From the NCBI GenBank assembly GCA_035574295.1, contig DATLYX010000125.1, forward strand, positions 1-32,000: a stretch of 32,000 nt of DNA. Reading direction: 5' to 3'. The position numbers were made by a program, and so were the translations under genes. The notes under the pieces were generated by a model. That model ran no database searches, had not been told where the DNA came from, and saw nothing but the letters and a program-made list of their open reading frames with translations. Below, piece by piece: positions 19,815 through 32,000 of the stretch (the stretch's first letter is position 1; the number at the start of each line of letters is the position of its first letter). Origin of the DNA: Xanthobacteraceae bacterium. GTDB lineage: Bacteria > Pseudomonadota > Alphaproteobacteria > Rhizobiales > Xanthobacteraceae.

Positions 19815-21176
19815 ATGCCGACGCCCAATCTCGGTCTGCCCTTCATTGCCCAGGGGCAGGCGCAGAAGGAGGTCACCCACAACGAGGCGCTGCGCATCCT
19901 CGACACCCTGGTGCAGCTCGCGGTGCTCGACCGCGATCTCTCCGCGCCACCCGGATCGCCGAGCGAAGGCCAGCGCTGGATCGTGGGCGCGTCGCCCACC
20001 GGCGCCTGGGCCGGACATGCGAACCATATCGCCGCCTGGCAGGACGGCGCCTGGCAGTTCAGCGTGCCGAAGATCGGCTGGCTCGCCTACGTCATCGATG
20101 AAGGCTCGCTGCTCGCATGGGACGGCAGCGCCTGGGTCGCGGCCCTTGAATTCGTACTCGACAATCTCAGCCACCTTGGCATCAATACGACCGCCGATGC
20201 CAACAACAGGCTGGCGGTGAAGAGCAACGGAGCGCTCTTCTCGCACGATGACGTCACGCCCGGCACGGGCGACATGCGCGTCAGTGTCAACAAGGCCACC
20301 GCGAACAAGGACGCAAGCTTCGTCTTCTACGACGCCTGGAGCCCGCGCGCCATGTTCGGGCTGCTTGCCGACGATGACTTCGTGCTCAAGACGTCGCCGG
20401 ACGGCGCGAGCTTCTTCAGCGCGGCGCGGGTCTTCAACTGGTGCGGCCGCGCCGACGTGCGCGATTCAGCCCGCCGGCGCTATGTCGAGTGGTTCCCCAA
20501 CGTCAATACCACGACCCTCAACGCTCAGGGGCTGACGTCGACCATCACCGGCACCGCCACCGCCGCGGCACTGTCCAACGTCAGCATGTTCGCGCAGAGC
20601 CCGCGGCTGATCTTCGCCTCCGCTGCTGCGGCTGGCTCATCGGCCGGGGTCAACGGCGCGCAGCTCATCGTCTGGCGGGGCAGCAGCGGCGACCGCGGCG
20701 GGTTCTATCTCCTGATGCGTTTCGGCTGGGAGACGCCGCAGGCGCAGGGCCGCTGCTTTGCGGGCCTGCGTGGCTCGACCGCGGCGATTGGCAACGTCAA
20801 CCCGAGCACGCTCACCGACATCATCGGGATCGGCTTCGACTCCGGCCAGACCACGATGCGCATTCTTTCCAACGATGCCTCTGGCACCGCGTCCGCTCTC
20901 GATCTCGGCGCGAACTTTACCTCGAACCAGGGGCATGACTTCTACGAGCTGATGCTCTCCGCCGAGCCGGGCGGCAGCGAGGTGAAATGGCGCGTCGAGC
21001 GGCTCAACAGCGGCCACATCGCGACGGGCACCATCAACGCGGATTTGCCCGCCGCCGGCACGTTCCTCACCCCGCATCTGTGGGGCAACAACGGAACGAC
21101 CGCCGCCGCCGTCCAGATCGCCCTTCACACCATGTACCTGGAAAACGCGAGCCTCTACGGCTCGCGCGGGTTCTGA
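19815..21176 (+). CDS. DUF2793-domain tail fibre / receptor-binding candidate
   Basis: The track ORF 18936-21176 is trimmed to the ATG at 19815. MPTPNLGLPFIAQGQAQKEVTHNEALRILDTLVQLAVLDRDL..PP.SPSEGQRWIV is the DUF2793 N-terminus. The C-terminal 300 aa are Ser/Thr/Gly/Ala/Asn-rich and beta-type. Confidence 0.75.
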   Translation: MPTPNLGLPFIAQGQAQKEVTHNEALRILDTLVQLAVLDRDLSAPPGSPSEGQRWIVGASPTGAWAGHANHIAAWQDGAWQFSVPKIGWLAYVIDEGSLLAWDGSAWVAALEFVLDNLSHLGINTTADANNRLAVKSNGALFSHDDVTPGTGDMRVSVNKATANKDASFVFYDAWSPRAMFGLLADDDFVLKTSPDGASFFSAARVFNWCGRADVRDSARRRYVEWFPNVNTTTLNAQGLTSTITGTATAAALSNVSMFAQSPRLIFASAAAAGSSAGVNGAQLIVWRGSSGDRGGFYLLMRFGWETPQAQGRCFAGLRGSTAAIGNVNPSTLTDIIGIGFDSGQTTMRILSNDASGTASALDLGANFTSNQGHDFYELMLSAEPGGSEVKWRVERLNSGHIATGTINADLPAAGTFLTPHLWGNNGTTAAAVQIALHTMYLENASLYGSRGF

Positions 21177-21213
21177 CACGCTCCGGTCACGCTCCCAGAA
21201 AAGGACGTCCGCC

Positions 21214-21504
21214 ATGACTCTCCCCCGGTCGGACGAGGATCACGTTCGCATGACCCAAGCCGAAATCGAGGAACTGCTCGCCCGCGCCGCCGAGCGTGGC
21301 GCACGCCGGGCGCTCGCCGACGTCGGACTCGAAGGCAAGGAGGCCGCGCTCGATATCCGCGATCTGCGCGCGCTCCTTGAATGCGTGCGTCTCGTGCGCC
21401 GGACCGTGGTGCAGACCATCGTGCGGCTGATCACCACCGGCATCCTGCTCGCGCTCCTCGCCGGCATCGCCGTCAAGCTGAAGCTGTTCGGCAACGGCTC
21501 TTGA
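21214..21504 (+). CDS. Small membrane protein, possible holin / lysis regulator
   Basis: 96 aa with a charged helical N-terminus and a single C-terminal TM segment (VVQTIVRLITTGILLALLAGIAV). It lies immediately upstream of the endolysin. The function is inferred from position only. Confidence 0.45.
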   Translation: MTLPRSDEDHVRMTQAEIEELLARAAERGARRALADVGLEGKEAALDIRDLRALLECVRLVRRTVVQTIVRLITTGILLALLAGIAVKLKLFGNGS

Positions 21505-22700: not shown

Positions 22701-23525
22701 CTATGCCCTTGGTGGCATGCGGGCCGCATCCAGCCGGCGATGAATGAGGGATGCCAGAGACAAGAGATCCTCGGCATCGGCCTTGTTCATGACCCAATGG
22801 ATGCGAGGGGCATGCGCTGTCGGGTTCCGGAACATTCCGAAGACGCCCTTGACGAGGTTGGCGAAACCGCGCTGTTCGCCCCGCTCGCTCTCGGAGCTGA
22901 GATCGTTGATCGCCAGCATTGGAAGATCGCCGCCGAGAGCACGATCGACGAGAACGGCTCCGTCGTCAGCGAGGCCAGTGCGGGCGCGCAGCTTGTCAGC
23001 GATGCTCTTGGTCGCCTCCAGGACCGCATGAAAATAATCGTCTGCCACCAGCTCAGCTCGACAGAAACGCAGCACGTCCGGGTGGACGCCGCGCGCGGTC
23101 AGGTCATCCTTCAGTTCCTGGGCCCGGCGCTCAGCCTCTGAGAGCGTTCGCGCCCGCTCGGCCGAACTCAGTGTCCCGGCGGCGTCGACGGCGAGCCCGG
23201 CAAATGAGAGCGCACGATTGAGGTTGGTGCGCATCGGCTCGAAGCGCTCGGGACAGCGGGCATAGCGCTCAGGCTTCATGGCATGGCGGATGAACGCCAG
23301 GATGGCCCGCCGATCTTGACGGCTGTTCTGGCTTTCTGCGAAGGCGTTAAAGAGGCGATGTCGCTTGGTCATATTCGGGGTCGGATCAGCCATACGGCAC
23401 GTCGCCAGGAGATGGGCGATTTCAGATCCGGTGAGGCCTTCGCTTGTGTCTGCGAGCGCTGCAGCAATGGCCTCGAGCTGGCTTTGAGTGAAGAGCGGCG
23501 GAACGTCGTTCACTTGCGATCCCAC
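22701..23525 (-). CDS. TIGR02391 (Hypoth_Ymh) domain protein, last gene of defence operon
   Basis: The C-terminal DDYFHAVLEATKSIADKLR...ERGEQRGFANLVKGVFGMFRNPTAHAPRIHW...DAEDLLSLASLIHRRLD is the TIGR02391 signature. The track start at 23777 overlaps the upstream gene in an Arg-rich junk frame. I prefer GTG 23525 (AAGGACGG upstream), or GTG 23513. Confidence 0.75.
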   Translation of the reverse strand: MGSQVNDVPPLFTQSQLEAIAAALADTSEGLTGSEIAHLLATCRMADPTPNMTKRHRLFNAFAESQNSRQDRRAILAFIRHAMKPERYARCPERFEPMRTNLNRALSFAGLAVDAAGTLSSAERARTLSEAERRAQELKDDLTARGVHPDVLRFCRAELVADDYFHAVLEATKSIADKLRARTGLADDGAVLVDRALGGDLPMLAINDLSSESERGEQRGFANLVKGVFGMFRNPTAHAPRIHWVMNKADAEDLLSLASLIHRRLDAARMPPRA

Positions 23526-23547
23526 TGGCAATCCGTCCTTGCCGGAC

Positions 23548-26500
23548 CTACGTCTTGAGCCGCAGGTCGGGGCTGACCTCCTCCAGCAGCCCGTTGATCG
23601 ATTCGACGGTCTCGGTGCTGATTTCCTGGCCGTCTCCCAACGTGACGGAGAGTTGGAACTGCAGGGGCACCCCAGCGGCCGCCTTGACGACGTCCGGCAG
23701 CACGTCGACCAGGTCTTGCAGCGCGGACGGCTCCAGGGCAGCCGAAGACGTATAGACGCCCTTCGGCTTCGGCACATACCCGCCTGGTTGAGGCTCCGCC
23801 ATTCCGCCCGGGGCGGCAGGCTGCTTCAGCATTACCGCCGAAGCGCCCGCCATATCGCATGGCCACGTGCCGCTCCCAGACGCGAGCTCAAGCCACCGGG
23901 CCTTGATCGCATCGTCGATGGCGCGCCGTAGGACCGTCCACGGAATGGGGTGGTCGGTCTGGGCAGACAACGCGACCGAAAGCGCAAGCGCCGTGGTTTG
24001 CCCATCTTTCCATGCGTCCGGCACCGCATCCTGCATCAGGCGGTTGACCGGCAGCGGCGGCATCGGTGCCCGCAGCTGGGCGGTCGCGGTCAGCACGCCG
24101 GAGGGTACCGGCTCGCCCTGGAAGCTTGCGGGTCCGTTCACGAGCCAGAGGATGCCCTGGCGGACAGCATCCGAGATCGCCGCCTCGACGGCCGCCCTCG
24201 GACAGGCCGGGATGACCACCGGCTCCTCATATCCCTCCCGCTGCACCATGACCGTCCGGCCGCCCGCAAAATAGGAGATCACGTCGGCGACGGTCACGGC
24301 GTCGCCGTTCCAGAGGCCCGGCAGGACACTGGGAGCTAGAACGCTCGGGTGGAGTTCGGACAGTGTCGCCTTTTCAGGCAGGAACACCTCGAGCGCCGGC
24401 TCCCTGCGCGCCGCCTCGTCAATCGGCGTGCGCCACCAGGTCCTGACCGACTTGTCGGGCCGGGTGAGCGACGCAACGAAAATGCCCGCCTGGACGCCCT
24501 GGTCGATGGTGTCGAGGATCTCCTTCTGGCGCAGCATCTTCGGCAGCTTCGGGTTCTCCGCGAACGCACTTACCAGGTCCTTCACGCGGCGTGACGGCTC
24601 GTCCTTGCGCCACAGGTCATAGGGCCCGCCCGGCAACATCGCCTCGGCGCTGATCGCGGTGTCCTGAATGCGCGAGCGCTTGTCCGCCTTGACGGTCGAG
24701 AACAGCGGCTCCGAGCCGACCGTGACCTTGAATGCGTGGATGTCGTTCTGCTCGTTGACGGTCACGACGATCGACCACGCCTGGCGGATCGCCTCCGGAA
24801 TCCGCCTGCGCGCCTCCTCGGTCCAACGGGCCAGCATTTCCTCCCGGATAGGATCCTGCGGCTGGTCCTTGAGCTGGCTGCGCACCTCCTCCCAGCCGAG
24901 ATATTCCCGAATCCGGGTGCGGACGGCGTCGAGGCCATCGCGCGACGGCGCAACCAGCACCACCGCATTGCGGTAGGTCCGCGGGCGGTCCGGTCCCGTC
25001 GTCTCATCGATGAAGCGCCGCGCTTCCGCGCTCGGCTTGCCCGAGTCCGAGACGGCCTTGGGACCGAGGATGGCGAAATGGAAATCCCCGTCGTTCTCGA
25101 TGTCGCGCGGCCGCTCGGGAAGCGTGTGGACGCGCGCACCGGCCGCCGCTGCCCCCTGCGTCAGGCTCTTCGTCTGCTGGACATCGGCCAGCAGCTTCAG
25201 CTCGATCGCTTCCGCCGTCACACGGTTGGCGCAGGCGTCGTGATGCATCTGCTTCAGGTTCGGCCGGTTGCCGAGTCGCCACGCCTTCGGCAGCGCCTTT
25301 GACTGGCCATTGTCCGCGACATCGCTCGCAAACTCGGCTTCGTCGAGGAACCAGGACAACTCTGTCCAGCGGCGCAGACCCTTCTCGAGTTCGATGCGGT
25401 CGGGGCGCGTCGCGCTCACCAGAGCGACGAGATCCGGCGTGCGCGCCTTCTGACCAATCGGCTGAGAGCTCAGGAACACCGCGCAGACGGCCTGCTCCAT
25501 CTCCCGGAACTTGAGCCCAGGCTGCTCCGTCTGGATCGCGCGCGCCTTGGCGAGCTCGCCTTCGAGGATCGCGGTCCACTCGTGCCCGCGGCCCTCGGTC
25601 ACTTCGCGCGTCGCGATGCCGGTCAGCTCGCGCGCCGCCTCGGCGATGCCCGTTTGCTCCGGCGCCGGCAGGAACACGTTCGGGCCGACCAGGGGCGAGC
25701 TGTCCCATTTCTCCGCGTCGCGCAGCGCCAGCGCGAATGTGCGCAGGATGCCGCGCGTGCGCTGGAAGCCGTCGAGCTGCGTCCAGCGCGTGTAGAAGAT
25801 GTCGGTAAGGTCGGGGTGGAAGGGATAGCTGCGGAGGAAGCGGTCCTCCGCGTTCTTCCTGTCTTTGCGCACCGTCTCATCGAGCTCGGCGATGTTCGCC
25901 ACCGCCGTCGTGACATGCGGCCGGAAGGACTCGGTGTCGGCGATCGACGCCGTCTCGAAGAAGCGGCGCCGCAGCACCTCGGCCACGTCCTCCTTCTGCA
26001 CCGGCTGGACACCTTCCTCCTTCTGGCGGTTGAAGATCTCGAAGATCTGGGCGATCAGCTCCTTGCCGAACGGATCGCTCTTCTCCGGGTCGGACGCGAG
26101 GAGCGAGGCGACCATGGCGCAGCGGTCGACCTTGGCGACGGCCTGGCAGAGGTACTGGAAGAAGTCGATCAGCCGGCCGCGCCAGACCTCGGCCATCGCC
26201 ACCTTCTCGCGGGCGTACATCAGCACCTCGTCGATGAGGACGAGGGTCGAGAGCCCTTCCGCTTGCGGCCTGGACAGCAGATCGACGAGCAGCGGCTCGG
26301 CAGGCGGCGTCTCCCGCTCCTCGCTCTTGCCGTCGGCATTGAGGGCGCGCAAGCCCTCATCGCCAGCAATCTGGAAGGCGAGCACGCTCCAAGGATGCTT
26401 GAGCCAGCGCATCTCGCCCTTGGGCCCGCGCACCTCCATGCCCTTTTCGACGTCGAGCTTGTCGAAGCTCAAGGCCACGACGCGCGCCTTCGGCAGCGGG

Positions 26501-26874
26501 GCGCCGATATGGGACTTGAACTGCTCGACCGCGGGCAGCGACGGAAGCGACGCTGGGTCGTGTACGAGGTGGCGCAGCGTCACCAGCGTGTGCGTCTTGC
26601 CGCCGCCATATGTGAGTTCCAGCTGGCGGATCGCCTTGGTGTTTCTGCCGGCAAGGCGCAGCACCACATCGCGCGCCAGCTCCCTCAGCGAGAAGGTCGG
26701 ATAGGTGAGCGCGAAGAACCGGGCCGGATCCTCATAGATCGGCCGTGCGCCCCTCTGCATCATCACGTCGTGCAGGTCGGCCGCGAAATCGGCGAGCGAC
26801 AGCGCGCCCGTGCGCACGTCCTCGCGCAGCTTCACCACGCCGTGCCAGGGAGTCCAGGGAAGTTTCGGTGCCAT
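23548..26874 (-). CDS. DUF499-family P-loop ATPase (about 1108 aa)
   Basis: The ATG at 26874 lies 1 nt after the methylase stop, with GGAGG at 26881-26885. Walker A LTYGGGKTH (GGGKT at 26593-26607) and Walker B LVLIDE (26227-26244) are present. The N-terminal WHGVVKLREDVRTGALSLADFAADL and the overall length are typical of DUF499 proteins. Confidence 0.85.
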   Translation of the reverse strand: MAPKLPWTPWHGVVKLREDVRTGALSLADFAADLHDVMMQRGARPIYEDPARFFALTYPTFSLRELARDVVLRLAGRNTKAIRQLELTYGGGKTHTLVTLRHLVHDPASLPSLPAVEQFKSHIGAPLPKARVVALSFDKLDVEKGMEVRGPKGEMRWLKHPWSVLAFQIAGDEGLRALNADGKSEERETPPAEPLLVDLLSRPQAEGLSTLVLIDEVLMYAREKVAMAEVWRGRLIDFFQYLCQAVAKVDRCAMVASLLASDPEKSDPFGKELIAQIFEIFNRQKEEGVQPVQKEDVAEVLRRRFFETASIADTESFRPHVTTAVANIAELDETVRKDRKNAEDRFLRSYPFHPDLTDIFYTRWTQLDGFQRTRGILRTFALALRDAEKWDSSPLVGPNVFLPAPEQTGIAEAARELTGIATREVTEGRGHEWTAILEGELAKARAIQTEQPGLKFREMEQAVCAVFLSSQPIGQKARTPDLVALVSATRPDRIELEKGLRRWTELSWFLDEAEFASDVADNGQSKALPKAWRLGNRPNLKQMHHDACANRVTAEAIELKLLADVQQTKSLTQGAAAAGARVHTLPERPRDIENDGDFHFAILGPKAVSDSGKPSAEARRFIDETTGPDRPRTYRNAVVLVAPSRDGLDAVRTRIREYLGWEEVRSQLKDQPQDPIREEMLARWTEEARRRIPEAIRQAWSIVVTVNEQNDIHAFKVTVGSEPLFSTVKADKRSRIQDTAISAEAMLPGGPYDLWRKDEPSRRVKDLVSAFAENPKLPKMLRQKEILDTIDQGVQAGIFVASLTRPDKSVRTWWRTPIDEAARREPALEVFLPEKATLSELHPSVLAPSVLPGLWNGDAVTVADVISYFAGGRTVMVQREGYEEPVVIPACPRAAVEAAISDAVRQGILWLVNGPASFQGEPVPSGVLTATAQLRAPMPPLPVNRLMQDAVPDAWKDGQTTALALSVALSAQTDHPIPWTVLRRAIDDAIKARWLELASGSGTWPCDMAGASAVMLKQPAAPGGMAEPQPGGYVPKPKGVYTSSAALEPSALQDLVDVLPDVVKAAAGVPLQFQLSVTLGDGQEISTETVESINGLLEEVSPDLRLKT

Positions 26875-26875
26875 G

Positions 26876-29800
26876 TCAGACCTCCATGGCCGTCTGCCGC
26901 GGCGCTGAGATGCCGCCGCGCGAGGCAATGTGGTTGGAGAGGGATTCCAGGATCGCGCGCTCCTCGGAGCCTGCCGGGGCCAGCTCGATCAGCGCCTGCA
27001 GGACTTTCGCGAACAGCGCGTTGCGCTTGAGCCCGCGCGAATCCAGGTAGTCATCGACCTTCGCCTCGTCGCCGGCGCGCCAGAGATGCATCAGCCGGTG
27101 CGCCTGGTCGATCAGCGGCACCGGGCGACCGCCCGGACCCTCAAAGCCCAGCCATTTGGCCTTGCGCTGGTGCCAGGGCTTCAGCTTGACCTTGTTTCCT
27201 TTGCCGCCGGAATCGCTGTCGGCGTCCTCGGCGTCGGTGTCGCTGTCCTCCTCGGCGTCCTCGGCACCGTCCAGATCGTCGAAGAGCGTGCCGCCGGTGC
27301 GCGAGAGGATGTCGAAGCGGTCGGCGAGATCGCTGTCCGAAAGGTTGCACGACAGCGCATAGAGGATGCAGGCGCCGATCGGCGCATCGTCGAGTCCGAA
27401 GTCGTTCCGGTGCAGGAGGTAGTAGGTGGTGATGTCGTCGAGGCCGCTCGCCATCTCGGCATCGCCGTTGTGCGAAAGGACCCGCCCCACCACGAAATCG
27501 ACCACGATCCGGCGCACCTCGCGCAGGAATTCCGAAACGGTCATGACCGCGCCGGGATCGTCGGCCTTCTTGACGACTGGGTATTTCGAGAAGGCTTCGA
27601 GTGCCGGTCCTGTTGCCGCCCAGACGAAGTCCGGCCCGCGGATGCCGGCATCCCAAAAGGCGCGGAGCTGGGTGTGGATGCGCTCGCGCATCTCGGCGAG
27701 GACCGCAGTGTCCCAGCCCGGCCGGGCGGCGGGGCGCTTCTTGCAGACGAGCCAGACGGAGGAGGCGAGCGCAGCGGATGCAAGCGACCGCGTGCGAACC
27801 TGCCGCTCAGTCTGGATGGGCCAGGAACCATCTACAACGAAGCCGGCGCGAATAAGGGCGGCAACTAGAGTCTCCCATGCATCTGGCTGTTTATTTGCGA
27901 ACACGACGACAAGACGGCCACTTGGCACCAGGGCCGTGTGACAAGCTTGGAACGCCCGCGCCATTCCGTTCTCGTAATTTGCCTTAGAGCGCGCCTTGTC
28001 GCCCTCAAAGCGACTGGCATCATCGATCAGTTCGCCGTCATCTGCCTCTCGGTCCCACTTAGGGCCGAGAGGAGAGTTGAACGCACCGTCTAAGGAGCCG
28101 TTGCTGGCTCCAACAGAGCGTCGCAGCCAGATGTAGAAGAAGTCCATCAAGTCGGAATAGGGGATGGCGTCGTAATAGGGCGGGTCGGTGATGATCGCGT
28201 CGTAACCTGTAAGACTATTTTCGATCGCCGACTTTCTCAGGATTGTCGGTTGAGAAGTCGTCGATGATGCGCGCGATGTGTGATCGAATACCTCTCCTAT
28301 CCACTCAATGGCCTGAACAAATCCACCAGATGAATCTACGAAGGGATTTCCTTCGGCGAAGTCCCAAGTTATCGGCAGAGCAAAGCGAGCAAAGCTATTG
28401 CGAAGCTTCTCCGGGTCGTTCTGCCATGTCGTGATTTGACTGCCACGGTCAGCAGCCCTATCCAAAGCACATGCAAGGCTGGCAACCAGCGCTTCCGACC
28501 ACGGCTGGGGAAACGAATTCGCTGTCGCAGCGTCCACCAGGGAGCGAATAACGAGCGCGAATGTCCCAAGCGAGACCAGCTGCCGATCCGTGAACAGCTT
28601 GGCCCACTGGTCGAAGCCGTAGCCGTCAACGGAGAATGCACGCGCCGCGCCGCTGCCTCCCTTCGGCGTCGGCTCCGTCGGCAGGCCGAACGGAATGCCG
28701 GCGTACAACGCATCGAGCTCGGCATTCGACACCTCGGCGGCGCGAAGCTCTTCGGCGGTTGGCAGCCGATACTCCTTGCCGTTCGGCCCATCGACGACCA
28801 CCGCCGTCATCACCGCGCCGAGCCGGCCGGCGCGCCCCTCAAGCCGGATGTCCTCCATCGTCATGATCGTCGGGCAGCAGGGGCATTGTGCGCCGGAGCG
28901 GCTCATGGTGCCGGCGCCCCGGCGCTTATCGTGCTCGCGCCGTTGCGCGGCGTTGCCGCCGACGAGCGGCACGTTGTTCTCAATGCCGAAGACGACGCCG
29001 GTCCGGTCGGCGTTCGGCGTCATGGTCAGCAGCACCCGCTTGTTGTCCTTCTTGGCGAGCCAGCGGGTCTTGAGCAGCGGAATGGTCGCGCGGCAGCCCT
29101 TGCAGCGCACCGTGCGCGCCCAGAGATAGGCCACCGTCGGCTTCGCCACCCAGCGCGGGTTGCGCGGATCGTTGAGATAGGCCCTGGCATAGCCCGCGTT
29201 GAGCGGCGCGACATCGACATTGCCGTCCGCGTCCGGCTCCAGCAGCTGAAGGGGCTGCGGCTCGAACGGCTTGTCGCCGGGCTCGAGCGGCTGGAACTCG
29301 GCATAGGTCGGATAGCGGTGGGCGAGCTTCCGGCGCGCTTGGGCAAGGACCCAGCGGCCCCAGGCACGCACCTGCCAGGCGAGATCGGCTTCGAGCAGCG
29401 GGTCGTGGGCGATCAGCTCGGGCTCCGCCTCCGTCCCATCCTCATCGAGGCCGAGTTTTGCGAGCTGGCGCTTCAGCGCCGCACCCTTGAAGCCTTTCGC
29501 CTTCAGGAAGGACTCCATGAAATCGCGGTCCTTGAGCGCGAAGTCCGGCAGCGGGCGGGTTTGCCCCGCGAGCTTCTGCGGGTATTCCAGCGTGCATTTC
29601 AGGATGAACCAGGCGACCGGGTTGATGTCGATCGCCGTCACCTCGCAGCCCAGGCGCATGGCCTCGAGCGGGATCGCGCCGCCGCCCGCGAAGGGATCGA
29701 GCACCTTCGGCGCGCGCCCGCCATAGGATTCGCGGATCTTTTCCCGGAACCAGTCGAGATCGGGGCCGCTCTCCCGCCCCCAATGCAGAATTCCGCCCTC

Positions 29801-30091
29801 CGTCTCGCGCTTGCGGACCTCGACCGTCCGCCCGCCGACCTTCTTCTGCTCGATCCTCTCCTTCACCGTGCCGGCAAGCCGCCGATAGATCGCCTTGCGC
29901 TCCTCCGCCTCGCCGGGATCGGGCAAGAGCGTGGCGATCAGCGCCGCGCGGCTTGCCGCGAGCGGCCGCCGCGCCGGCCAGATGTGCAGCGTCGAGATAT
30001 GCCCATGCCGGACGTTCTTCTCATGCACCGAGTCGAGCGACACCTGCTCCAGGGGGAAGTCGACTTCGATGAGGCGTTTATCGTTCGGCAT
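26876..30091 (-). CDS. DUF1156-domain DNA amino-methyltransferase with zinc ribbon (about 1071 aa)
   Basis: The true start is the ATG at 30091 (MPNDKRLIEVDFPLEQVSLDSVHEKNVRHGHISTLHIWPARRP, the DUF1156 N-terminus), 2 nt after the DUF3800 stop. Motif I DPFAGGG is at 29678-29698 (aa 132). Zinc ribbon CKGC is at 29093-29104 and CPCC at 28874-28885. Motif IV DPPY is at 28175-28186 (aa 636). The track extension to 30436 is an artefact. Confidence 0.9.
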   Translation of the reverse strand: MPNDKRLIEVDFPLEQVSLDSVHEKNVRHGHISTLHIWPARRPLAASRAALIATLLPDPGEAEERKAIYRRLAGTVKERIEQKKVGGRTVEVRKRETEGGILHWGRESGPDLDWFREKIRESYGGRAPKVLDPFAGGGAIPLEAMRLGCEVTAIDINPVAWFILKCTLEYPQKLAGQTRPLPDFALKDRDFMESFLKAKGFKGAALKRQLAKLGLDEDGTEAEPELIAHDPLLEADLAWQVRAWGRWVLAQARRKLAHRYPTYAEFQPLEPGDKPFEPQPLQLLEPDADGNVDVAPLNAGYARAYLNDPRNPRWVAKPTVAYLWARTVRCKGCRATIPLLKTRWLAKKDNKRVLLTMTPNADRTGVVFGIENNVPLVGGNAAQRREHDKRRGAGTMSRSGAQCPCCPTIMTMEDIRLEGRAGRLGAVMTAVVVDGPNGKEYRLPTAEELRAAEVSNAELDALYAGIPFGLPTEPTPKGGSGAARAFSVDGYGFDQWAKLFTDRQLVSLGTFALVIRSLVDAATANSFPQPWSEALVASLACALDRAADRGSQITTWQNDPEKLRNSFARFALPITWDFAEGNPFVDSSGGFVQAIEWIGEVFDHTSRASSTTSQPTILRKSAIENSLTGYDAIITDPPYYDAIPYSDLMDFFYIWLRRSVGASNGSLDGAFNSPLGPKWDREADDGELIDDASRFEGDKARSKANYENGMARAFQACHTALVPSGRLVVVFANKQPDAWETLVAALIRAGFVVDGSWPIQTERQVRTRSLASAALASSVWLVCKKRPAARPGWDTAVLAEMRERIHTQLRAFWDAGIRGPDFVWAATGPALEAFSKYPVVKKADDPGAVMTVSEFLREVRRIVVDFVVGRVLSHNGDAEMASGLDDITTYYLLHRNDFGLDDAPIGACILYALSCNLSDSDLADRFDILSRTGGTLFDDLDGAEDAEEDSDTDAEDADSDSGGKGNKVKLKPWHQRKAKWLGFEGPGGRPVPLIDQAHRLMHLWRAGDEAKVDDYLDSRGLKRNALFAKVLQALIELAPAGSEERAILESLSNHIASRGGISAPRQTAMEV

Positions 30092-30093
30092 AA

Positions 30094-30921
30094 TTATTTT
30101 CCCAAAGACATGAGCGAAGCCGGCGCGATCGAATTGAACCATCGCGAGGAGGCTCCATTCTGTTTTGCCGGCCAGCGGCAGCTGCGAGGAAGGAGCCTGC
30201 TTGCCAGGATGGCTACGTATTCTTCGATCAGCGCTTGCTCGCCCGCCCATTCCTCGGGTTTCTCGAAGTCCTTCATCTCGGCGTAGCGTCGAAATATGAA
30301 TGCGAACAGATCGGCGACCTGAACCAATCCCGCGTGGTGAGACTTGATGCTGAAGGTCGTATCCACGATCTGGTCCAGCCGGCCCTGCTTCTTTTGCCTG
30401 TCGTAATAGTCGTCGGTCCACTCCGGGGGCTGCCACAACAGATCGCTCAGCGCGTCTGCCTTCACTTTGTTGTCGTCAAAGATCAGGAACGTGTGCCCCT
30501 TATTCTTGTCCTTGTTTTGATGGGACTTTTGAATCTGTAAGGCAATATGCAGGCCTCCCGCTAGCCAATCATCGCGGCATTGCTTCGGAACGTCGGCAGT
30601 ATCATCCTTCTTCAGCTTGCTTCGGTCGATTGCTGAGAGCGCAAGGTAATGCTTGCGATCACCGATCCACTTGCAAAGATGGCCGGCAATCTTCTTGCGA
30701 ACTTCCGGATCGACCTTCCGCCAGCGGTCCCGGCCGAAGATCATCTTTGAGCCCTTAAGCTCTCGCAGGTTCTCTTCGAAAAGTCTCTGAACGTCGTCGA
30801 AAATCTCGGCGAATTCCTCCCGCGTCCGGTTCAGGCGATAGGCATCAACAAGGACCCCGACCATGACAAGGCAGGGATCCTGGGGGCTGTTGCCGCTCTC
30901 ATCGACGTAGCAGATTTTCAT
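30094..30921 (-). CDS. DUF3800-domain protein
   Basis: 275 aa. The N-terminal MKICYVDESGN and later HHAGLVQVADLFAFIFRR match the DUF3800 pattern. The ATG lies 7 nt after the helicase stop, and the stop lies 2 nt before the methylase ATG. GC content is visibly lower than in the neighbours. Confidence 0.8.
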   Translation of the reverse strand: MKICYVDESGNSPQDPCLVMVGVLVDAYRLNRTREEFAEIFDDVQRLFEENLRELKGSKMIFGRDRWRKVDPEVRKKIAGHLCKWIGDRKHYLALSAIDRSKLKKDDTADVPKQCRDDWLAGGLHIALQIQKSHQNKDKNKGHTFLIFDDNKVKADALSDLLWQPPEWTDDYYDRQKKQGRLDQIVDTTFSIKSHHAGLVQVADLFAFIFRRYAEMKDFEKPEEWAGEQALIEEYVAILASRLLPRSCRWPAKQNGASSRWFNSIAPASLMSLGK

Positions 30922-30928
30922 GTGCCCC

Positions 30929-32000
30929 TCAGTCAGTGGCTGCCATCAAGATTTCGGTCTCGGCGATCAGGACGCTGCCTTTGGCCTTGGCCAACAGCTT
31001 TCCAAACGGGTCCTGCACCTTCACGAGACGCGGTCGCGGCGTGGCGCAGTCGAAGGCGACGTAGAGCCAGTATCGGCCGCGCAGATTGCAGGCCTTCGCC
31101 CATTCGTTTTCGCTGACCTCCACGCCGCCGGCCCCGGCGCAGCCCTTGACCTCGATGGCACGCTCCTCCGCCGGGCCGTGCGGGGTGGCAGGCCGCAGCG
31201 AGCGGAGATCGAATCCGGGCCAGTCGGTGAGGCCTGCGGCGCGCGCGAGCTCGGGCCGCGACACGTCATGGACAGTGGCGCCGGCCGCCTCTTCGTGTGC
31301 GCGCGCAAGCCGTATGGCGATGGCCTCCACCTCGGCGTCGTGCCGCCGCCGCTCCTCCGGATCGTCGGTGGGAAGAACAAGCGCGTGCGCCACCATCTCC
31401 GCTTCGCCCGGAACGATCAGGGCCGGCTCCATCTTCAGCAGCTTTAGCCGCCGCTCCTTCTCGGCAGCGAGCTGGCGCTGCTGCTCCCTGACCCTGGTGA
31501 GCTCGGCCTTCGCATGGGGATCGCCCTGGCGGGCCGCTTCGCTCACGCGCTGCCGCTTGGCGATCAGCTCGGCCGTCTTGTGGTCATAGCCGCGGGTGAT
31601 CCAATCGAGCCGCTCCGGCAGGGTGTTTTCAATGCGCGCCCGGTGCTCCTCCACCATGTGGGCAAGTGCATCGCCCTTGATCCATTCGGCGGCGGCGTCC
31701 GTCAGCCCTCGCGCAAGCCGGGCGAGCGGCACGCTGCCGGGAGGCACGCCATGCGCACCCCGCAGCAGGAGCAAGTGCTCCAGCGGACAAAGAGCGATCG
31801 TGCCGTCGCTTTCCTGTCTCAGGCCGATCAGGCGGCTCTCGATGATCTCCGAGCGGACGCTGTCCTGACGCCCAAAGTGATCCTCGAAGAGCTCGACGGC
31901 CTCTGTGGCCGGCTGGCGGCGGACGACCGATACCTGGGCGAGATGGAAGAGATAGGGTGCCTTGGCGTGAGAGTCGACGAAGATCGCGCCGCGACGCGCC
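30929..32000 (-). CDS. C-terminal part of a large helicase-related protein ending in a DUF3883 (PD-(D/E)xK-like) domain; 5' end beyond window
   Basis: My own translation shows the frame stays open from 31999 down through the track ORF (ARRGAIFVDSHAKAPYLFHLAQVS...LEHLLLLRGAHG...), so the TTG at 31774 is not the start. The C-terminus GFDLRSL...AIEVKGCAGAGGVEVSENEWAKACNLRGRYWLYVAFDC is the DUF3883 signature. The helicase core itself is not in the window, so it is inferred. Confidence 0.75.
   Translation of the reverse strand, partial: ARRGAIFVDSHAKAPYLFHLAQVSVVRRQPATEAVELFEDHFGRQDSVRSEIIESRLIGLRQESDGTIALCPLEHLLLLRGAHGVPPGSVPLARLARGLTDAAAEWIKGDALAHMVEEHRARIENTLPERLDWITRGYDHKTAELIAKRQRVSEAARQGDPHAKAELTRVREQQRQLAAEKERRLKLLKMEPALIVPGEAEMVAHALVLPTDDPEERRRHDAEVEAIAIRLARAHEEAAGATVHDVSRPELARAAGLTDWPGFDLRSLRPATPHGPAEERAIEVKGCAGAGGVEVSENEWAKACNLRGRYWLYVAFDCATPRPRLVKVQDPFGKLLAKAKGSVLIAETEILMAATD

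What the first reader, a model, noticed from the sequence alone, without database searches (positions are those of the whole stretch)
30094..30921. Low-GC DUF3800 gene wedged with 7 nt and 2 nt junctions between the helicase and methylase genes
Seen in sequence: the gene is translationally coupled on both sides. Upstream the junction is TGA GGGGCAC ATG, and downstream it is TAATTATG.

Its composition differs from its neighbours. Hand GC counts on 60 nt lines are 25/60 (30481-30540), 30/60 (30601-30660), 33/60 (30781-30840) and 34/60 (30301-30360). That compares with about 44/60 in the flanking methylase sequence (29101-29160).

The N-terminal YVDESG-type acidic motif suggests a metal-dependent, possibly RNase H-like or nuclease active site; that reading is an inference. 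As I recall, related DUF1156/DUF499 cassettes carry a different small accessory gene (DUF3780) rather than DUF3800.

This gene could therefore be a swapped-in effector or sensor module, and it is the least understood component of the operon.
Basis: partly seen in the sequence, partly recalled or inferred. Interest (0 to 1): 0.7.

Follow-up and report, generated by a model that had tools for sequence, protein, structure and literature searches.

The report
RNase H-like gene embedded in Hma operon
A small gene for an RNase H-like nuclease of unknown function (DUF3800) sits in a known cassette-swapping slot of an anti-phage helicase-methylase-ATPase operon, and its relatives are embedded in other restriction systems too, which makes it an untested candidate defence gene rather than a recent foreign insertion.

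Summary
A 275-aa ORF lies at 30094-30921 on the minus strand, with 7-nt and 2-nt junctions. Its GC is 0.551 against 0.666 for the window (z = -4).

The gene is a full-length DUF3800 protein. The AlphaFold model is confident, and its solved-structure matches are all type-2 RNase H. The candidate catalytic residues D7, E8, D149 and Q201xxD204 are invariant.

The operon is Hma (also called a Type-1 BREX-related system): hmaA-DUF3800-hmaB-hmaC-HEPN. The hmaA|hmaB gap is a published hotspot for embedded defence genes.

In my survey, 51 of 62 related operons had this slot occupied, by about 55 ORF clusters. This DUF3800 family filled it in only 3. Two sister operons of 85-90% nucleotide identity carry HEC-07 or HEC-01 exactly in its place.

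The gene is not a recent arrival. Its divergence tracks that of hmaA and hmaB (r about 0.9), dN/dS is 0.06-0.11, and the low GC recurs in nearly every homologue.

The same clade is also embedded in type III (mod-X-res) and type I (hsdS-X-hsdR) restriction operons. No PADLOC model matches it, and none of the papers I read mentions this.

Best reading: an autonomous embedded auxiliary nuclease. It is a new member of a known kind.

The parts
30094..30921 (-). The DUF3800 gene (275 aa). It encodes a predicted RNase HII-fold nuclease. Candidate catalytic codons are D7 (30901-30903), E8 (30898-30900), D149 (30475-30477) and Q201/D204 (30310-30321).
   Evidence: ORF. Pfam PF12686, E = 1.5e-14, full length. 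AlphaFold2 pLDDT 89.2. Foldseek matches to RNase HII/HIII. Invariant residues. dN/dS 0.06-0.11.
30922..30931 (-). The hmaA stop (TGA, 30929-30931) and the 7-nt spacer GGGGCAC. Together they form a GAGGGG Shine-Dalgarno-like run upstream of the DUF3800 ATG.
   Evidence: GAGG or GGAG lies 7-10 nt upstream of the start in most of the 12 homologous loci printed. In L004-L007, L010, L011, L013 and L111 the upstream ORF ends in a 4-nt ATGA or GTGA overlap with the start.
30089..30096 (-). The DUF3800 stop (TAA), a 2-nt spacer (TT) and the hmaB ATG. The junction reads TAATTATG.
   Evidence: L001 and L002 have TGAttATG and TGAtcATG at the same place.
30929..32000 (-). The 3' part of hmaA; the gene runs off the window. 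It encodes an SNF2-family helicase with a C-terminal NOV_C PD-(D/E)xK nuclease whose D...ExK...E motif is intact (GFD...IEVK...SENEW).
   Evidence: Pfam NOV_C, E = 3.6e-11. PADLOC HmaA and TmtA. The full-length homologue in L001 has HTH_3, SNF2, Helicase_C and NOV_C. Motif read from the translation and compared with HmaA D1084/E1104/K1106/E1121 in PMC11232893.
26876..30091 (-). hmaB, the DUF1156 N6-adenine methyltransferase (1071 aa).
   Evidence: Pfam DUF1156, E = 4.5e-18. PADLOC HmaB, E = 1.2e-118.
27842..28654 (-). Hypervariable, low-GC3 segment inside hmaB (about aa 480-750, including the DPPY motif). It is probably an exchanged specificity region.
   Evidence: GC3 is 0.50-0.66 against 0.80-0.94 in the flanks, and amino-acid identity to the closest relatives is 32-62% against more than 90% in the flanks. 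blastn homology breaks at about 27.9-28.2 kb and resumes at about 28.56-28.84 kb in all five relatives.
23548..26874 (-). hmaC, the DUF499 ATPase (1108 aa). The start is the ATG 1 nt after the hmaB stop.
   Evidence: Pfam DUF499. PADLOC HmaC, E = 1.1e-71. Start; tblastn alignments to homologues begin at ORF residues 15-18.
22701..23531 (-). Terminal gene of the operon. It encodes a Hypoth_Ymh / TIGR02391 protein (HEPN-like, PD-Lambda-3_B-like). The likely start is TTG 23531, 17 nt after the hmaC stop.
   Evidence: Pfam, E = 4.6e-40. PADLOC PD-Lambda-3_B, E = 1.5e-82. NCBIfam TIGR02391. Start analysis.

Best explanation
The gene encodes a catalytically intact nuclease with a type-2 RNase H fold (DUF3800). 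It is one of many interchangeable cassettes that occupy the known embedding slot between hmaA and hmaB of Hma (Type-1 BREX-related) anti-phage operons.

Shown:
- It is a real gene under strong purifying selection.
- It sits inside a tightly packed operon behind its own Shine-Dalgarno-like sequence, so it is very probably co-transcribed.
- It has been co-inherited with the operon for a long time.
- In close sister operons it is precisely replaced by other embedded defence genes.
- The same clade is embedded in type III and type I restriction operons.

Inferred:
- It acts as an autonomous auxiliary or back-up nuclease of the defence locus.
- It is made together with the helicase-nickase HmaA, the methylase HmaB, the ATPase HmaC and the terminal HEPN-like protein.
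- It cuts RNA or RNA:DNA-hybrid-type substrates of the invader, or of the infected cell, by two-metal catalysis at D7/E8/D149/D204.
- It does not depend on a specific Hma partner protein.
For: Fold and active site.
- Pfam DUF3800 matches over its full length.
- The AlphaFold2 model has pLDDT 89 and pTM 0.91.
- All Foldseek PDB hits with E below 0.5 are RNase HII, HIII or H2.
- D7, E8, D26, Q131, D149, S194, Q201 and D204 are invariant across 27 sequences of 20-100% identity.

A functional gene.
- dN/dS is 0.06-0.11.
- A Shine-Dalgarno-like run is conserved in most homologous loci.
- 225 homologues, and 364 clusters at the 50% identity level, are nearly all stand-alone proteins of about 270 aa.

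Cassette behaviour.
- 51 of 62 HmaB-anchored loci have an occupied slot, holding 88 ORFs in about 55 clusters. They include HEC-09 (NYN), HEC-07, HEC-01, a Schlafen/ParA pair, a REase-PNTD protein, a CBASS cyclase and Abi_C.
- In L023 and L024, DNA homology breaks within about 10-40 nt of the ends of the DUF3800 gene.
- In L002 and L035, DUF3800 is stacked in tandem with HEC-07-like or HEC-09-like genes.
- Published work found embedded genes in 62.7% of Hma systems, and 7 of 9 tested embedded candidates defended on their own (10.1101/2024.01.29.577857).

Autonomy.
- The same clade is embedded in type III RM as mod-X-res (L008, L107, and probably L112 and L113, where the upstream gene is cut by the contig end and was not annotated) or as drmD-like-X-mod-res (L015).
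- It is embedded in type I RM as hsdS-X-hsdR with 4-nt overlaps (L102, L103).
- It lies beside stand-alone nucleases: YhcG, NOV_C and NaeI.
- On a neighbour-joining tree the contexts are interleaved.

Long residence.
- The identity matrices correlate at r = 0.91 and 0.90, Mantel p about 2e-4.
- The low GC is a family trait.
Against: - No biochemical or genetic data exist for any DUF3800 protein. In the CRISPR-associated kinase (CASK) study of 2026 the DUF3800 protein Csx32 was left without a function.
- The substrate is unknown. The GRG motif that type-2 RNase H uses to read the RNA-DNA junction is absent (DESGN instead of DE[AV]GRGP).
- Fold similarity is moderate (TM 0.4-0.5), with a roughly 60-residue helical insertion between strands 2 and 3.
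- In most Hma loci DUF3800 abuts hmaA directly, and other cassettes insert between it and hmaB (L003-L006, L109-L111). This could instead indicate a specific functional tie to HmaA.
- Some family members are orphans in housekeeping contexts (L114, L016, L019).
- Two of the nine tested embedded candidates gave no defence, so embedding alone is not proof.
Confidence: 0.5

Rival explanations
1. Guard nuclease of the PrrC/RloC type. DUF3800 is a latent nuclease held inactive by the restriction complex it is co-expressed with (Hma, type I or type III). It is released when a phage anti-restriction factor disables that complex, and it then cuts host or phage RNA as a second line of defence.
For: The gene is embedded in at least three different classes of ATP-dependent restriction system. 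In the type I loci it occupies the hsdS|hsdR position that prrC occupies in EcoprrI; that comparison is from my own knowledge of PrrC, and its distribution is cited within. Translational coupling would favour stoichiometric co-production. Other DUF3800 proteins accompany CRISPR effectors that cut tRNA: Cas12a3 and the Cas13 CASK system.
Against: There is no ATPase or sensor domain of the kind found in PrrC and RloC. No common partner protein is shared across the contexts. Orphan copies exist. No toxicity or activation data are available. Embedded candidates tested so far act on their own when cloned alone.
Confidence: 0.2
2. Dedicated accessory of the motor nuclease. DUF3800 works in cis with the SF2 helicase-nuclease (HmaA, Res or HsdR). 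For example, it could remove R-loops or RNA primers ahead of the translocase, or enlarge the nicks made by the NOV_C nickase.
For: DUF3800 almost always abuts a helicase-nuclease gene: directly after hmaA, often with an ATGA overlap, or directly before res or hsdR. Other cassettes insert downstream of it rather than between it and hmaA in 7 loci. It co-diverges with hmaA. HmaA is only a nickase in vitro (PMC11232893).
Against: Only 3 of 62 HmaB-anchored loci carry it, and 11 have an empty slot. Sister operons replace it with unrelated genes. HmaA defends on its own. The NOV_C motif of HmaA is intact here, so no lost nuclease needs compensating. HEC-07-like or HEC-09-like genes do separate it from hmaA in L002 and L035.
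Confidence: 0.15
3. Selfish or passenger gene. DUF3800 is a mobile nuclease gene, comparable to a free-standing homing endonuclease, that spreads by inserting between conserved genes of mobile defence operons and gives the host no benefit.
For: The GC is consistently lower than that of every host operon. Insertion sites are precise and cassette-like. Contexts are interleaved on the tree. Some copies lie beside transposases (L020, L105).
Against: Purifying selection is strong and the gene has co-diverged with the operon over a long period. There are no terminal repeats or target duplications at the junctions, which are only 7 and 2 nt long. No copies were found in 50,697 phage genomes or in IMG/VR. 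Other occupants of the same slot are validated defence genes.
Confidence: 0.07
4. Recent foreign insertion. This is the reader's implicit reading of the GC shift: the gene was acquired recently from a lower-GC donor and has not yet adapted to the host composition.
For: GC is 0.551 against 0.666, z = -4. GC3 is 0.70 against 0.80-0.87.
Against: The same offset is present in homologues that diverged down to about 50% identity while sitting in the same operon position. Amino-acid identity to L001 and L022 (88-89%) is comparable to that of the flanking genes. Part of the shift comes from amino-acid composition (GC1 and GC2, FYMINK 26%).
Confidence: 0.03

Closest known systems
Hma-embedded candidate (HEC) defence genes of Hma systems (Payne et al. 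2024, bioRxiv 10.1101/2024.01.29.577857; PADLOC-DB HEC-01 to HEC-09 and PDC models)
   Same: The gene sits between hma genes on the same strand. It is a single-gene predicted nuclease, like the RNase-type HEC-07, HEC-08 and HEC-09. It is precisely interchangeable with HEC-07 and HEC-01 in sister operons.
   Different: No PADLOC v2.0.0 model matches it at E <= 0.01. DUF3800 is absent from the text and the held supplements of that paper. The fold (type-2 RNase H) is not among the tested HECs. It has not been tested experimentally.
Hma system, also called the Type-1 DUF499-centred BREX-related system (PMC11232893; PMC12839542)
   Same: The host operon has all three core genes: an SNF2 helicase with NOV_C, a DUF1156 methyltransferase and a DUF499 ATPase. 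It also has a HEPN-like terminal gene.
   Different: DUF3800 is not a core component. It is present in only 3 of 62 HmaB-anchored loci. Neither paper lists an RNase H-fold or DUF3800 auxiliary effector.
DUF3780 accessory of Type-2 BREX-related systems (PMC12839542)
   Same: It is a small stand-alone gene inside a DUF1156/DUF499/helicase locus.
   Different: It has a different fold (an alpha+beta reader-like domain). It belongs to a different subtype, with an HKD nuclease at the helicase N-terminus. It is near-universal in that subtype (98% of taxa), whereas DUF3800 is a sporadic cassette in Type-1. It is not a swap partner of DUF3800.
Type-2 RNase H (RNase HII, HIII and H2A; for example PDB 1EKE, 1I39, 4PY5)
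   Same: It is the best and only consistent structural match. It has the adjacent Asp-Glu pair at the end of strand 1, an Asp at the end of strand 4 and an acidic residue on the helix after strand 5.
   Different: There is no sequence-level membership: no Pfam RNase_HII hit and no PDB sequence hit. The GRG junction-recognition motif is absent. A helical insertion of about 60 residues lies between strands 2 and 3. TM is only 0.4-0.5.
Other defence-associated DUF3800 proteins: the retron type VII accessory (PMC7736814), TPR-DUF3800 of Cas12a2/Cas12a3 loci (PMC10910872, PMC13594972) and Csx32 of Cas13 CASK loci (10.64898/2026.08.25.746378)
   Same: They belong to the same Pfam family, have a predicted RNase H-like fold, play an accessory role next to a primary immune effector, and have no known function.
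   Different: This clade is a stand-alone protein of about 275 aa with no TPR or reverse-transcriptase fusion. It keeps the QxxD motif, which the retron clade lacks. It is linked to restriction-modification-type systems rather than to CRISPR or retrons. None of the Rfam DUF3800 RNA motifs is nearby.
PrrC and RloC anticodon nucleases embedded in type I and type III R-M loci
   Same: They are nuclease genes nested inside restriction operons. Relatives of this gene lie at the hsdS|hsdR position and between mod and res.
   Different: The fold is unrelated: an ABC-ATPase with an anticodon-nuclease domain, against an RNase H fold. No evidence exists for latency or for activation by anti-restriction proteins. 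The PrrC details are from my own knowledge.

Membership tests
Pfam DUF3800 (PF12686) | The HMM score is above the gathering threshold and the match covers the full length. | tested here: met
   55.3 bits against a cut-off of 21, E = 1.5e-14, profile positions 1-149 of 149.
Pfam DUF3800 (PF12686) | An N-terminal DE motif and a C-terminal QxxD motif (as described in PMC7736814). | tested here: met
   D7-E8 in YVDESG and Q201-V-A-D204. Both are invariant in 27 sequences down to 20% identity.
Type-2 RNase H (RNase HII/HIII) | An RNase H-like fold whose closest solved structures are RNase HII or HIII. | tested here: met
   Foldseek PDB ranks 1-21 are all RNase HII, HIII or H2. The best hit is 1eke_A: E = 2.6e-4, probability 1.0, TM 0.43/0.51. 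The model has pLDDT 89.
Type-2 RNase H (RNase HII/HIII) | The four catalytic carboxylates (DEDD) are in the canonical structural positions. | tested here: inconclusive
   D7 and E8 (end of strand 1) and D149 (end of strand 143-148) fit by topology, and D204 or D187 could be the fourth. Model coordinates could not be inspected, so the geometry was not measured.
Type-2 RNase H (RNase HII/HIII) | Sequence-level family membership and the GRG motif that recognises the RNA-DNA junction. | tested here: not met
   There is no Pfam RNase_HII hit and no PDB sequence relative. hhalign probability is 6.9%. The sequence reads DESGN where RNase HII has DE[AV]GRGP.
Hma / Type-1 BREX-related system (host operon) | An SNF2 helicase with a C-terminal NOV_C nuclease, a DUF1156 methyltransferase and a DUF499 ATPase, all on one strand. 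| tested here: met
   Pfam and PADLOC hits: HmaB E = 1.2e-118, HmaC E = 1.1e-71, and NOV_C/HmaA on the visible C-terminus. The helicase core lies outside the window but is present in the 93%-identical L001 homologue.
Hma-embedded candidate defence gene (HEC/PDC, PADLOC) | The gene is located between hma core genes on the same strand. | tested here: met
   It lies between hmaA and hmaB with 7-nt and 2-nt junctions.
Hma-embedded candidate defence gene (HEC/PDC, PADLOC) | The protein matches an existing HEC or PDC model. | tested here: not met
   0 PADLOC-DB v2.0.0 families at E <= 0.01. Neighbouring-slot occupants in other loci do match HEC-01, HEC-07 and HEC-09.
Hma-embedded candidate defence gene (HEC/PDC, PADLOC) | The gene confers phage defence when expressed. 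| not testable with these tools
   This needs cloning and phage challenge.
DUF3780 accessory slot of Type-2 BREX-related systems | A DUF3780 fold in a locus whose helicase carries an N-terminal HKD nuclease. | tested here: not met
   The protein is DUF3800, not DUF3780. The helicase carries a C-terminal NOV_C domain, and in the L001 homologue an N-terminal HTH_3 with no PLD/HKD domain. Subtype definitions are from PMC12839542.
PrrC/RloC-type R-M-embedded guard nucleases | A nuclease gene nested inside a restriction-modification operon. | tested here: met
   It is embedded in Hma (this window), in type III as mod-X-res and in type I as hsdS-X-hsdR.
PrrC/RloC-type R-M-embedded guard nucleases | ABC-ATPase and anticodon-nuclease architecture, with latency relieved by anti-restriction factors. 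| tested here: not met
   The protein is a single RNase H-fold domain with no ATPase. Latency and activation cannot be tested with these tools.

The most novel reading that the evidence does not exclude
This DUF3800 clade may be a previously unrecognised family of RNase H-fold guard nucleases. They would have been recruited repeatedly into the operons of ATP-dependent restriction systems: Hma/BREX-related, type III (mod-X-res) and type I (hsdS-X-hsdR). Held in check by the restriction complex, they would be released when phages inhibit it, and would cut RNA or RNA:DNA hybrids (possibly tRNA) as a fail-safe. If so, this would give DUF3800 its first function and would tie together its scattered links to retrons, Cas12a2/a3 and Cas13.
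Probability: 0.2. Interest if true: 0.8.

Novelty: new member of a known kind. Interest (0 to 1): 0.5.

Why it matters
DUF3800 has been an open problem since 2017. It is associated with eleven unrelated structured RNA motifs, with retron type VII, and with Cas12a2/a3 and Cas13 loci, yet it has no assigned activity.

The clade found here is the simplest form of the family: a stand-alone protein of about 275 aa. It sits in a very well-defined genetic setting, a single slot of a three-gene restriction-like operon, and natural sister operons carry other cassettes or nothing in that slot. This gives an immediately testable system, using the operon with and without the gene and with catalytic point mutants.

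It also adds a candidate, with a fold class not among the tested HECs, to the set of defence genes found by their embedding in other systems. Finally, it shows that one accessory nuclease is shared among Hma, type III and type I restriction systems. That bears on how layered or back-up immunity is assembled.

Tried and rejected
1. Recent horizontal insertion as the cause of the low GC. Rejected: the offset recurs in nearly all homologous loci, and the gene co-diverges with its neighbours.
2. DUF3800 as a replacement for DUF3780. Rejected: DUF3780 belongs to the Type-2 subtype.
3. DUF3800 as compensation for a dead HmaA nuclease. Rejected: the NOV_C D...ExK...E motif is intact (compared).
4. 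DUF3800-associated RNA motifs (Weinberg 2017).
- None in the window at gathering threshold.
- None at E <= 1 in 22-32 kb.
- None in 8 related loci that have intergenic room.
5. Phage origin or an anti-defence role. No match in 50,697 phage genomes or in IMG/VR. BFVD holds only one distant DUF3800 model.
6. Internal promoter or terminator within or around the gene. Nothing beyond chance.
7. A solved structure of a relative by sequence. None found.
9. The source contig (46.9 kb) could not be retrieved. Only a 2.7-kb Logan contig was returned, so the hmaA 5' end and the promoter were inferred from L001 and L022.
10. Supplement searches of the three key papers for DUF3800, PF12686 or RNase H: no occurrences, or no files held.
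11. Distant DUF3800 homologues among the other slot occupants. An HMM built from A2 found only the three tblastn-positive ORFs.
Full report
OBSERVATION

On the coding strand the upstream junction is ...GAC TGA GGGGCAC ATG. This is the hmaA stop, a 7-nt spacer, and a GAGGGG Shine-Dalgarno-like run. The downstream junction is TAA TT ATG, the start of hmaB. The next junction, hmaB|hmaC, is TGA C ATG. The last gene probably starts 17 nt after the hmaC stop. The locus is therefore one compact five-gene operon. No promoter-like or terminator-like sites beyond chance lie inside it.

Quantitatively:
- Gene GC is 0.551 against a window mean of 0.666, z = -4.0, and only 0.3% of 828-nt windows are as low.
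- GC1/2/3 are 0.58/0.37/0.70, against about 0.69/0.47/0.80-0.87 in the neighbouring genes.
- The protein is rich in FYMINK residues (26% against 13-19%).

The shift is real. It comes partly from amino-acid composition and partly from synonymous sites.

WHAT THE GENE IS

Pfam DUF3800 matches end to end (E = 1.5e-14). PADLOC, NCBIfam and PHROGs give nothing useful.

An AlphaFold2 model built from 54 homologues is confident (pLDDT 89.2, pTM 0.91). Its strand and helix order is that of an RNase H-like fold, with a helical insertion of about 60 residues after strand 2.

Foldseek against the PDB returns only type-2 RNase H (HII, HIII, H2A) in ranks 1-21. The best hit is 1EKE: E = 2.6e-4, probability 1.0, TM 0.43-0.51. 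The only strong viral hit is another DUF3800 protein. No relative has a solved structure by sequence.

Across 27 sequences of 20-100% identity, D7, E8, D26, Q131, D149, S194, Q201 and D204 are invariant.
- D7 and E8 end strand 1, as the Asp-Glu pair of RNase HII does.
- D149 ends the strand at 143-148.
- Q201xxD204 lies on the following long helix.
- A weak hhalign match lays YVDESG on GVDEVGRG of E. coli RNase HII.
- The GRG junction-reading motif is absent.

No paper I found assigns an activity. In the 2026 Cas13 CASK study, the DUF3800 protein Csx32 was left without a function.

THE OPERON

The flanking genes are as follows.
- hmaA is visible only as its C-terminus, with a NOV_C PD-(D/E)xK nuclease whose motif is intact. 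The 93%-identical L001 homologue has HTH_3, SNF2, Helicase_C and NOV_C.
- hmaB is the DUF1156 methyltransferase (PADLOC HmaB, E = 1e-118).
- hmaC is the DUF499 ATPase (PADLOC HmaC, E = 1e-71).
- The terminal gene encodes a Hypoth_Ymh/TIGR02391 HEPN-like protein (PD-Lambda-3_B, E = 1e-82).

This is the Hma system. The 2026 BREX survey renamed it the Type-1 DUF499-centred BREX-related system (PMC12839542). HmaA alone defends E. coli against T4 through its NOV_C nickase (PMC11232893).

The DUF3780-versus-DUF3800 comparison therefore crosses subtypes.

THE SLOT

Two papers already describe the hmaA|hmaB gap as an insertion or embedding hotspot.
- 66.5% of hma loci carry insertions (PMC11232893).
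- 62.7% of 1,485 Hma systems carry embedded genes belonging to 434 families. Nine Hma-embedded candidates (HEC-01 to HEC-09) were tested, and seven defended on their own (bioRxiv 10.1101/2024.01.29.577857).

None of these papers, nor their held supplements, mentions DUF3800.

I repeated the survey from the HmaB side. A metagenome scan gave 80 loci, of which 62 have a complete hmaA 3' end upstream of hmaB.
- In 11 loci the two genes abut, with a gap of at most 150 nt.
- In 51 loci the slot is occupied, by 88 ORFs that fall into about 55 clusters.
- The commonest occupant is a NYN-domain protein of about 212 aa, HEC-09, in 9 loci.
- Others are HEC-07, HEC-01A, a Schlafen/ParA-like pair, a DUF4365 REase-PNTD protein, a CBASS-type cyclase and an Abi_C protein.
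- This DUF3800 family occupies the slot in only 3 of the 62 loci. A fourth copy is cut by a contig end.

DNA alignments make the cassette nature explicit.
- Sister operons L024 and L023 have flanks 84-91% identical to the window. They lose homology at 30085 or 30079 and regain it at 30951 or 30959, within about 10-40 nt of the ends of the DUF3800 gene.
- L024 carries HEC-07 in the slot, and L023 carries HEC-01.
- L002 keeps DUF3800 and has a HEC-07-like gene inserted exactly at the hmaA|DUF3800 junction.
- L035 has a HEC-09-like gene and DUF3800 in tandem.

NOT A RECENT ARRIVAL

A motif-based genome scan for DUF3800 found 21 loci. Eight of them are Hma operons with DUF3800 directly after hmaA. 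They come from metagenome-assembled genomes (MAGs) labelled Alphaproteobacteria, Planctomycetota, Thermoflexaceae and Streptomycetaceae.

- Pairwise identities of DUF3800 correlate with those of the HmaA C-terminus (r = 0.91) and of HmaB (r = 0.90), Mantel p about 2e-4.
- dN/dS is 0.06-0.11, similar to hmaA and hmaC.
- The gene has lower GC than its neighbours in nearly all of the 12 loci tabulated. GC is mostly 0.52-0.57, and GC3 is about 0.69-0.74 where the flanking hma genes have 0.78-0.89. The exceptions are L011 (0.41), L013 and L015, where the gap is small.

The low GC is thus a stable property of the family, not a timestamp of insertion. I have no firm explanation for why GC3 stays low. 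Possible causes are weaker codon-usage selection or deliberately low expression of a nuclease; both are speculation.

The other low-GC patch of the window lies inside hmaB, at about aa 480-750. That segment does look recently exchanged.
- Identity to the closest relatives falls to 32-62%, against more than 90% in the flanks.
- GC3 falls to 0.50-0.66.
- GC2 is unchanged.

THE SAME CLADE IN OTHER RESTRICTION SYSTEMS

Outside Hma, members of 46-62% identity are embedded in type III restriction-modification operons that also carry a DrmD-like SNF2 helicase.
- The order is helicase-mod-DUF3800-res in L008 and L107.
- L112 and L113 show DUF3800-res, with an upstream gene that is cut by the contig end and was not annotated.
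- The order is helicase-DUF3800-mod-res in L015.
- L105 (Kyrpidia) holds a degraded copy.

More distant members (31-33% identity) on two conjugative plasmids of Rhodobacterales sit between hsdS and hsdR of type I systems, with 4-nt overlaps on both sides. In one of these a Shedu nuclease is embedded next to them.

Other members follow a YhcG nuclease or a stand-alone NOV_C nuclease with an ATGA overlap, precede a NaeI endonuclease, or follow an archaeal HTH-helicase. A minority are orphans or lie beside IS elements.

Of the 21 loci found by the DUF3800 motif alone, 15 or 16 are in restriction or defence contexts. On a neighbour-joining tree the contexts interleave: type III-embedded copies nest among Hma-embedded ones. 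The gene has therefore moved between classes of system.

No copies were found in phage genomes or in IMG/VR. No Rfam DUF3800 RNA motif accompanies this clade. The family is small: 364 clusters among 1.84 billion representatives, almost all stand-alone proteins of about 270 aa.

MECHANISM

Shown:
- an intact, conserved gene under purifying selection, with an RNase HII-fold product;
- a position inside a tightly packed restriction-like operon, which implies co-transcription;
- cassette-like exchange with validated defence genes;
- repeated embedding in three classes of ATP-dependent restriction system.

Inferred, with confidence about 0.5: it is an autonomous auxiliary or back-up nuclease of the defence locus. 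It would act by two-metal catalysis on RNA or on RNA:DNA-hybrid-like substrates, and it would not need a particular Hma partner.

Rivals:
- A PrrC/RloC-style guard that is released when the restriction complex is inhibited (0.2). This is attractive because of the hsdS|hsdR and mod|res positions and because of DUF3800's links to tRNA-cutting CRISPR effectors.
- A cis-acting accessory of the motor nuclease (0.15). This is favoured by its near-constant adjacency to hmaA, res or hsdR. It is disfavoured by its rarity and replaceability.
- A selfish nuclease gene (0.07).
- A recent passenger insertion (0.03).

COMPARISON AND NOVELTY

The phenomenon of defence genes embedded in Hma is published. So are the fold prediction for DUF3800 and its loose link to defence.

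Three things appear to be new within the literature and databases I could search.
1. This DUF3800 clade is an Hma-embedded cassette that no PADLOC HEC or PDC model covers.
2. The same clade is embedded in type III and type I restriction operons.
3. The low GC is a family trait, accompanied by long co-inheritance with the operon.

I classify the finding as a new member of a known kind. Interest is moderate (0.5). The finding is not strange in itself, but it offers the simplest available system for finally assigning a function to DUF3800.

Noticed in passing
window 27842-28654 (-), inside hmaB (about aa 480-750): A hypervariable, low-GC3 segment of the methyltransferase. GC3 is 0.50-0.66 against 0.80-0.94 in the flanks, GC2 is unchanged, and amino-acid identity to the closest relatives is 32-62% against more than 90% outside it. 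blastn homology breaks at about 27.9-28.2 kb and resumes at about 28.56-28.84 kb in all five relatives. It looks like a recently exchanged specificity (TRD-like) module, and it is a stronger sign of recombination than the DUF3800 gene itself.
   Followed up: partly
window 1-22300 (+): The rest of the window is a prophage-like or GTA-like structural and lysis module: lambda-family portal, S49 protease, tail tube, tape measure, a GTA_TIM/Phage-tail_3 host-specificity protein, DUF2793 and a CHAP lysin. It converges on the 3' end of the Hma operon. The adjacency is conserved in L022 at 85-89% nucleotide identity, so the defence operon may be prophage-end cargo.
   Followed up: partly
window 19934-21243: Homology between the window and the otherwise syntenic L022 is lost over the region of the DUF2793 tail protein. 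This is a likely host-range variable region of the prophage.
   Followed up: no
window 26872-26928 and 23531-23777 (-): The mechanical ORF starts are too far upstream. hmaC most likely starts at ATG 26874, 1 nt after the hmaB stop, not at TTG 26928. The first roughly 82 codons of the Ymh ORF are an Arg/Ser/Cys-rich alternative frame of the hmaC 3' end, and the likely start is TTG 23531 or GTG 23525, behind an AAGGA run.
   Followed up: yes
window 22701-23531 (-): A HEPN-like Hypoth_Ymh/TIGR02391 protein (PADLOC PD-Lambda-3_B, E = 1.5e-82) is encoded as a separate last gene of the operon. The 2026 BREX survey describes HEPN fused to DUF499 in Type-1 BREX-related systems. The gene is present in L022 and L002 but absent from most of the 80 HmaB-anchored loci.
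   Followed up: partly
L008 1031-11409; L107 110-10326; L112; L113: A recurrent four-gene arrangement found in MAGs labelled Bryobacteraceae and Burkholderiales and in two metagenome contigs: DrmD-like SNF2 helicase, a long type III Mod (about 1030-1070 aa), DUF3800, and a type III Res (about 1050-1080 aa). In L112 and L113 only DUF3800-Res is seen in full, because the upstream gene is cut by the contig end. This looks like a conserved composite restriction system of its own.
   Followed up: partly
L102 6604-12049 (plasmid NZ_CP061500.1): A type I R-M operon with two genes embedded between hsdS and hsdR, all joined by 4-nt overlaps: a Shedu-family nuclease and a DUF3800 gene. A SprT-like metalloprotease follows hsdR in both plasmids.
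   Followed up: no
L111 8469-12677; L007 11735-16733: In the two Planctomycetota loci, hmaB is abnormally long or split. In L111 it is 1402 aa with a weak Y1 transposase hit. In L007 tblastn splits it into several pieces, so it may carry an insertion. L111 also has a NYN (HEC-09-like) gene between hmaB and hmaC.
   Followed up: no
L109 8836-9162; L110 2620-2946: A conserved 108-aa ORF with no Pfam or PADLOC match directly follows DUF3800. It lies ahead of an embedded Gabija-like AAA_21/UvrD pair in the L110 operon.
   Followed up: no
L021 10930-11016; L008 336-408: tRNA genes flank two DUF3800-bearing islands. One lies 100 nt downstream of the DUF3800 gene in L021, next to a Gabija-like locus. 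These may be integration sites.
   Followed up: no
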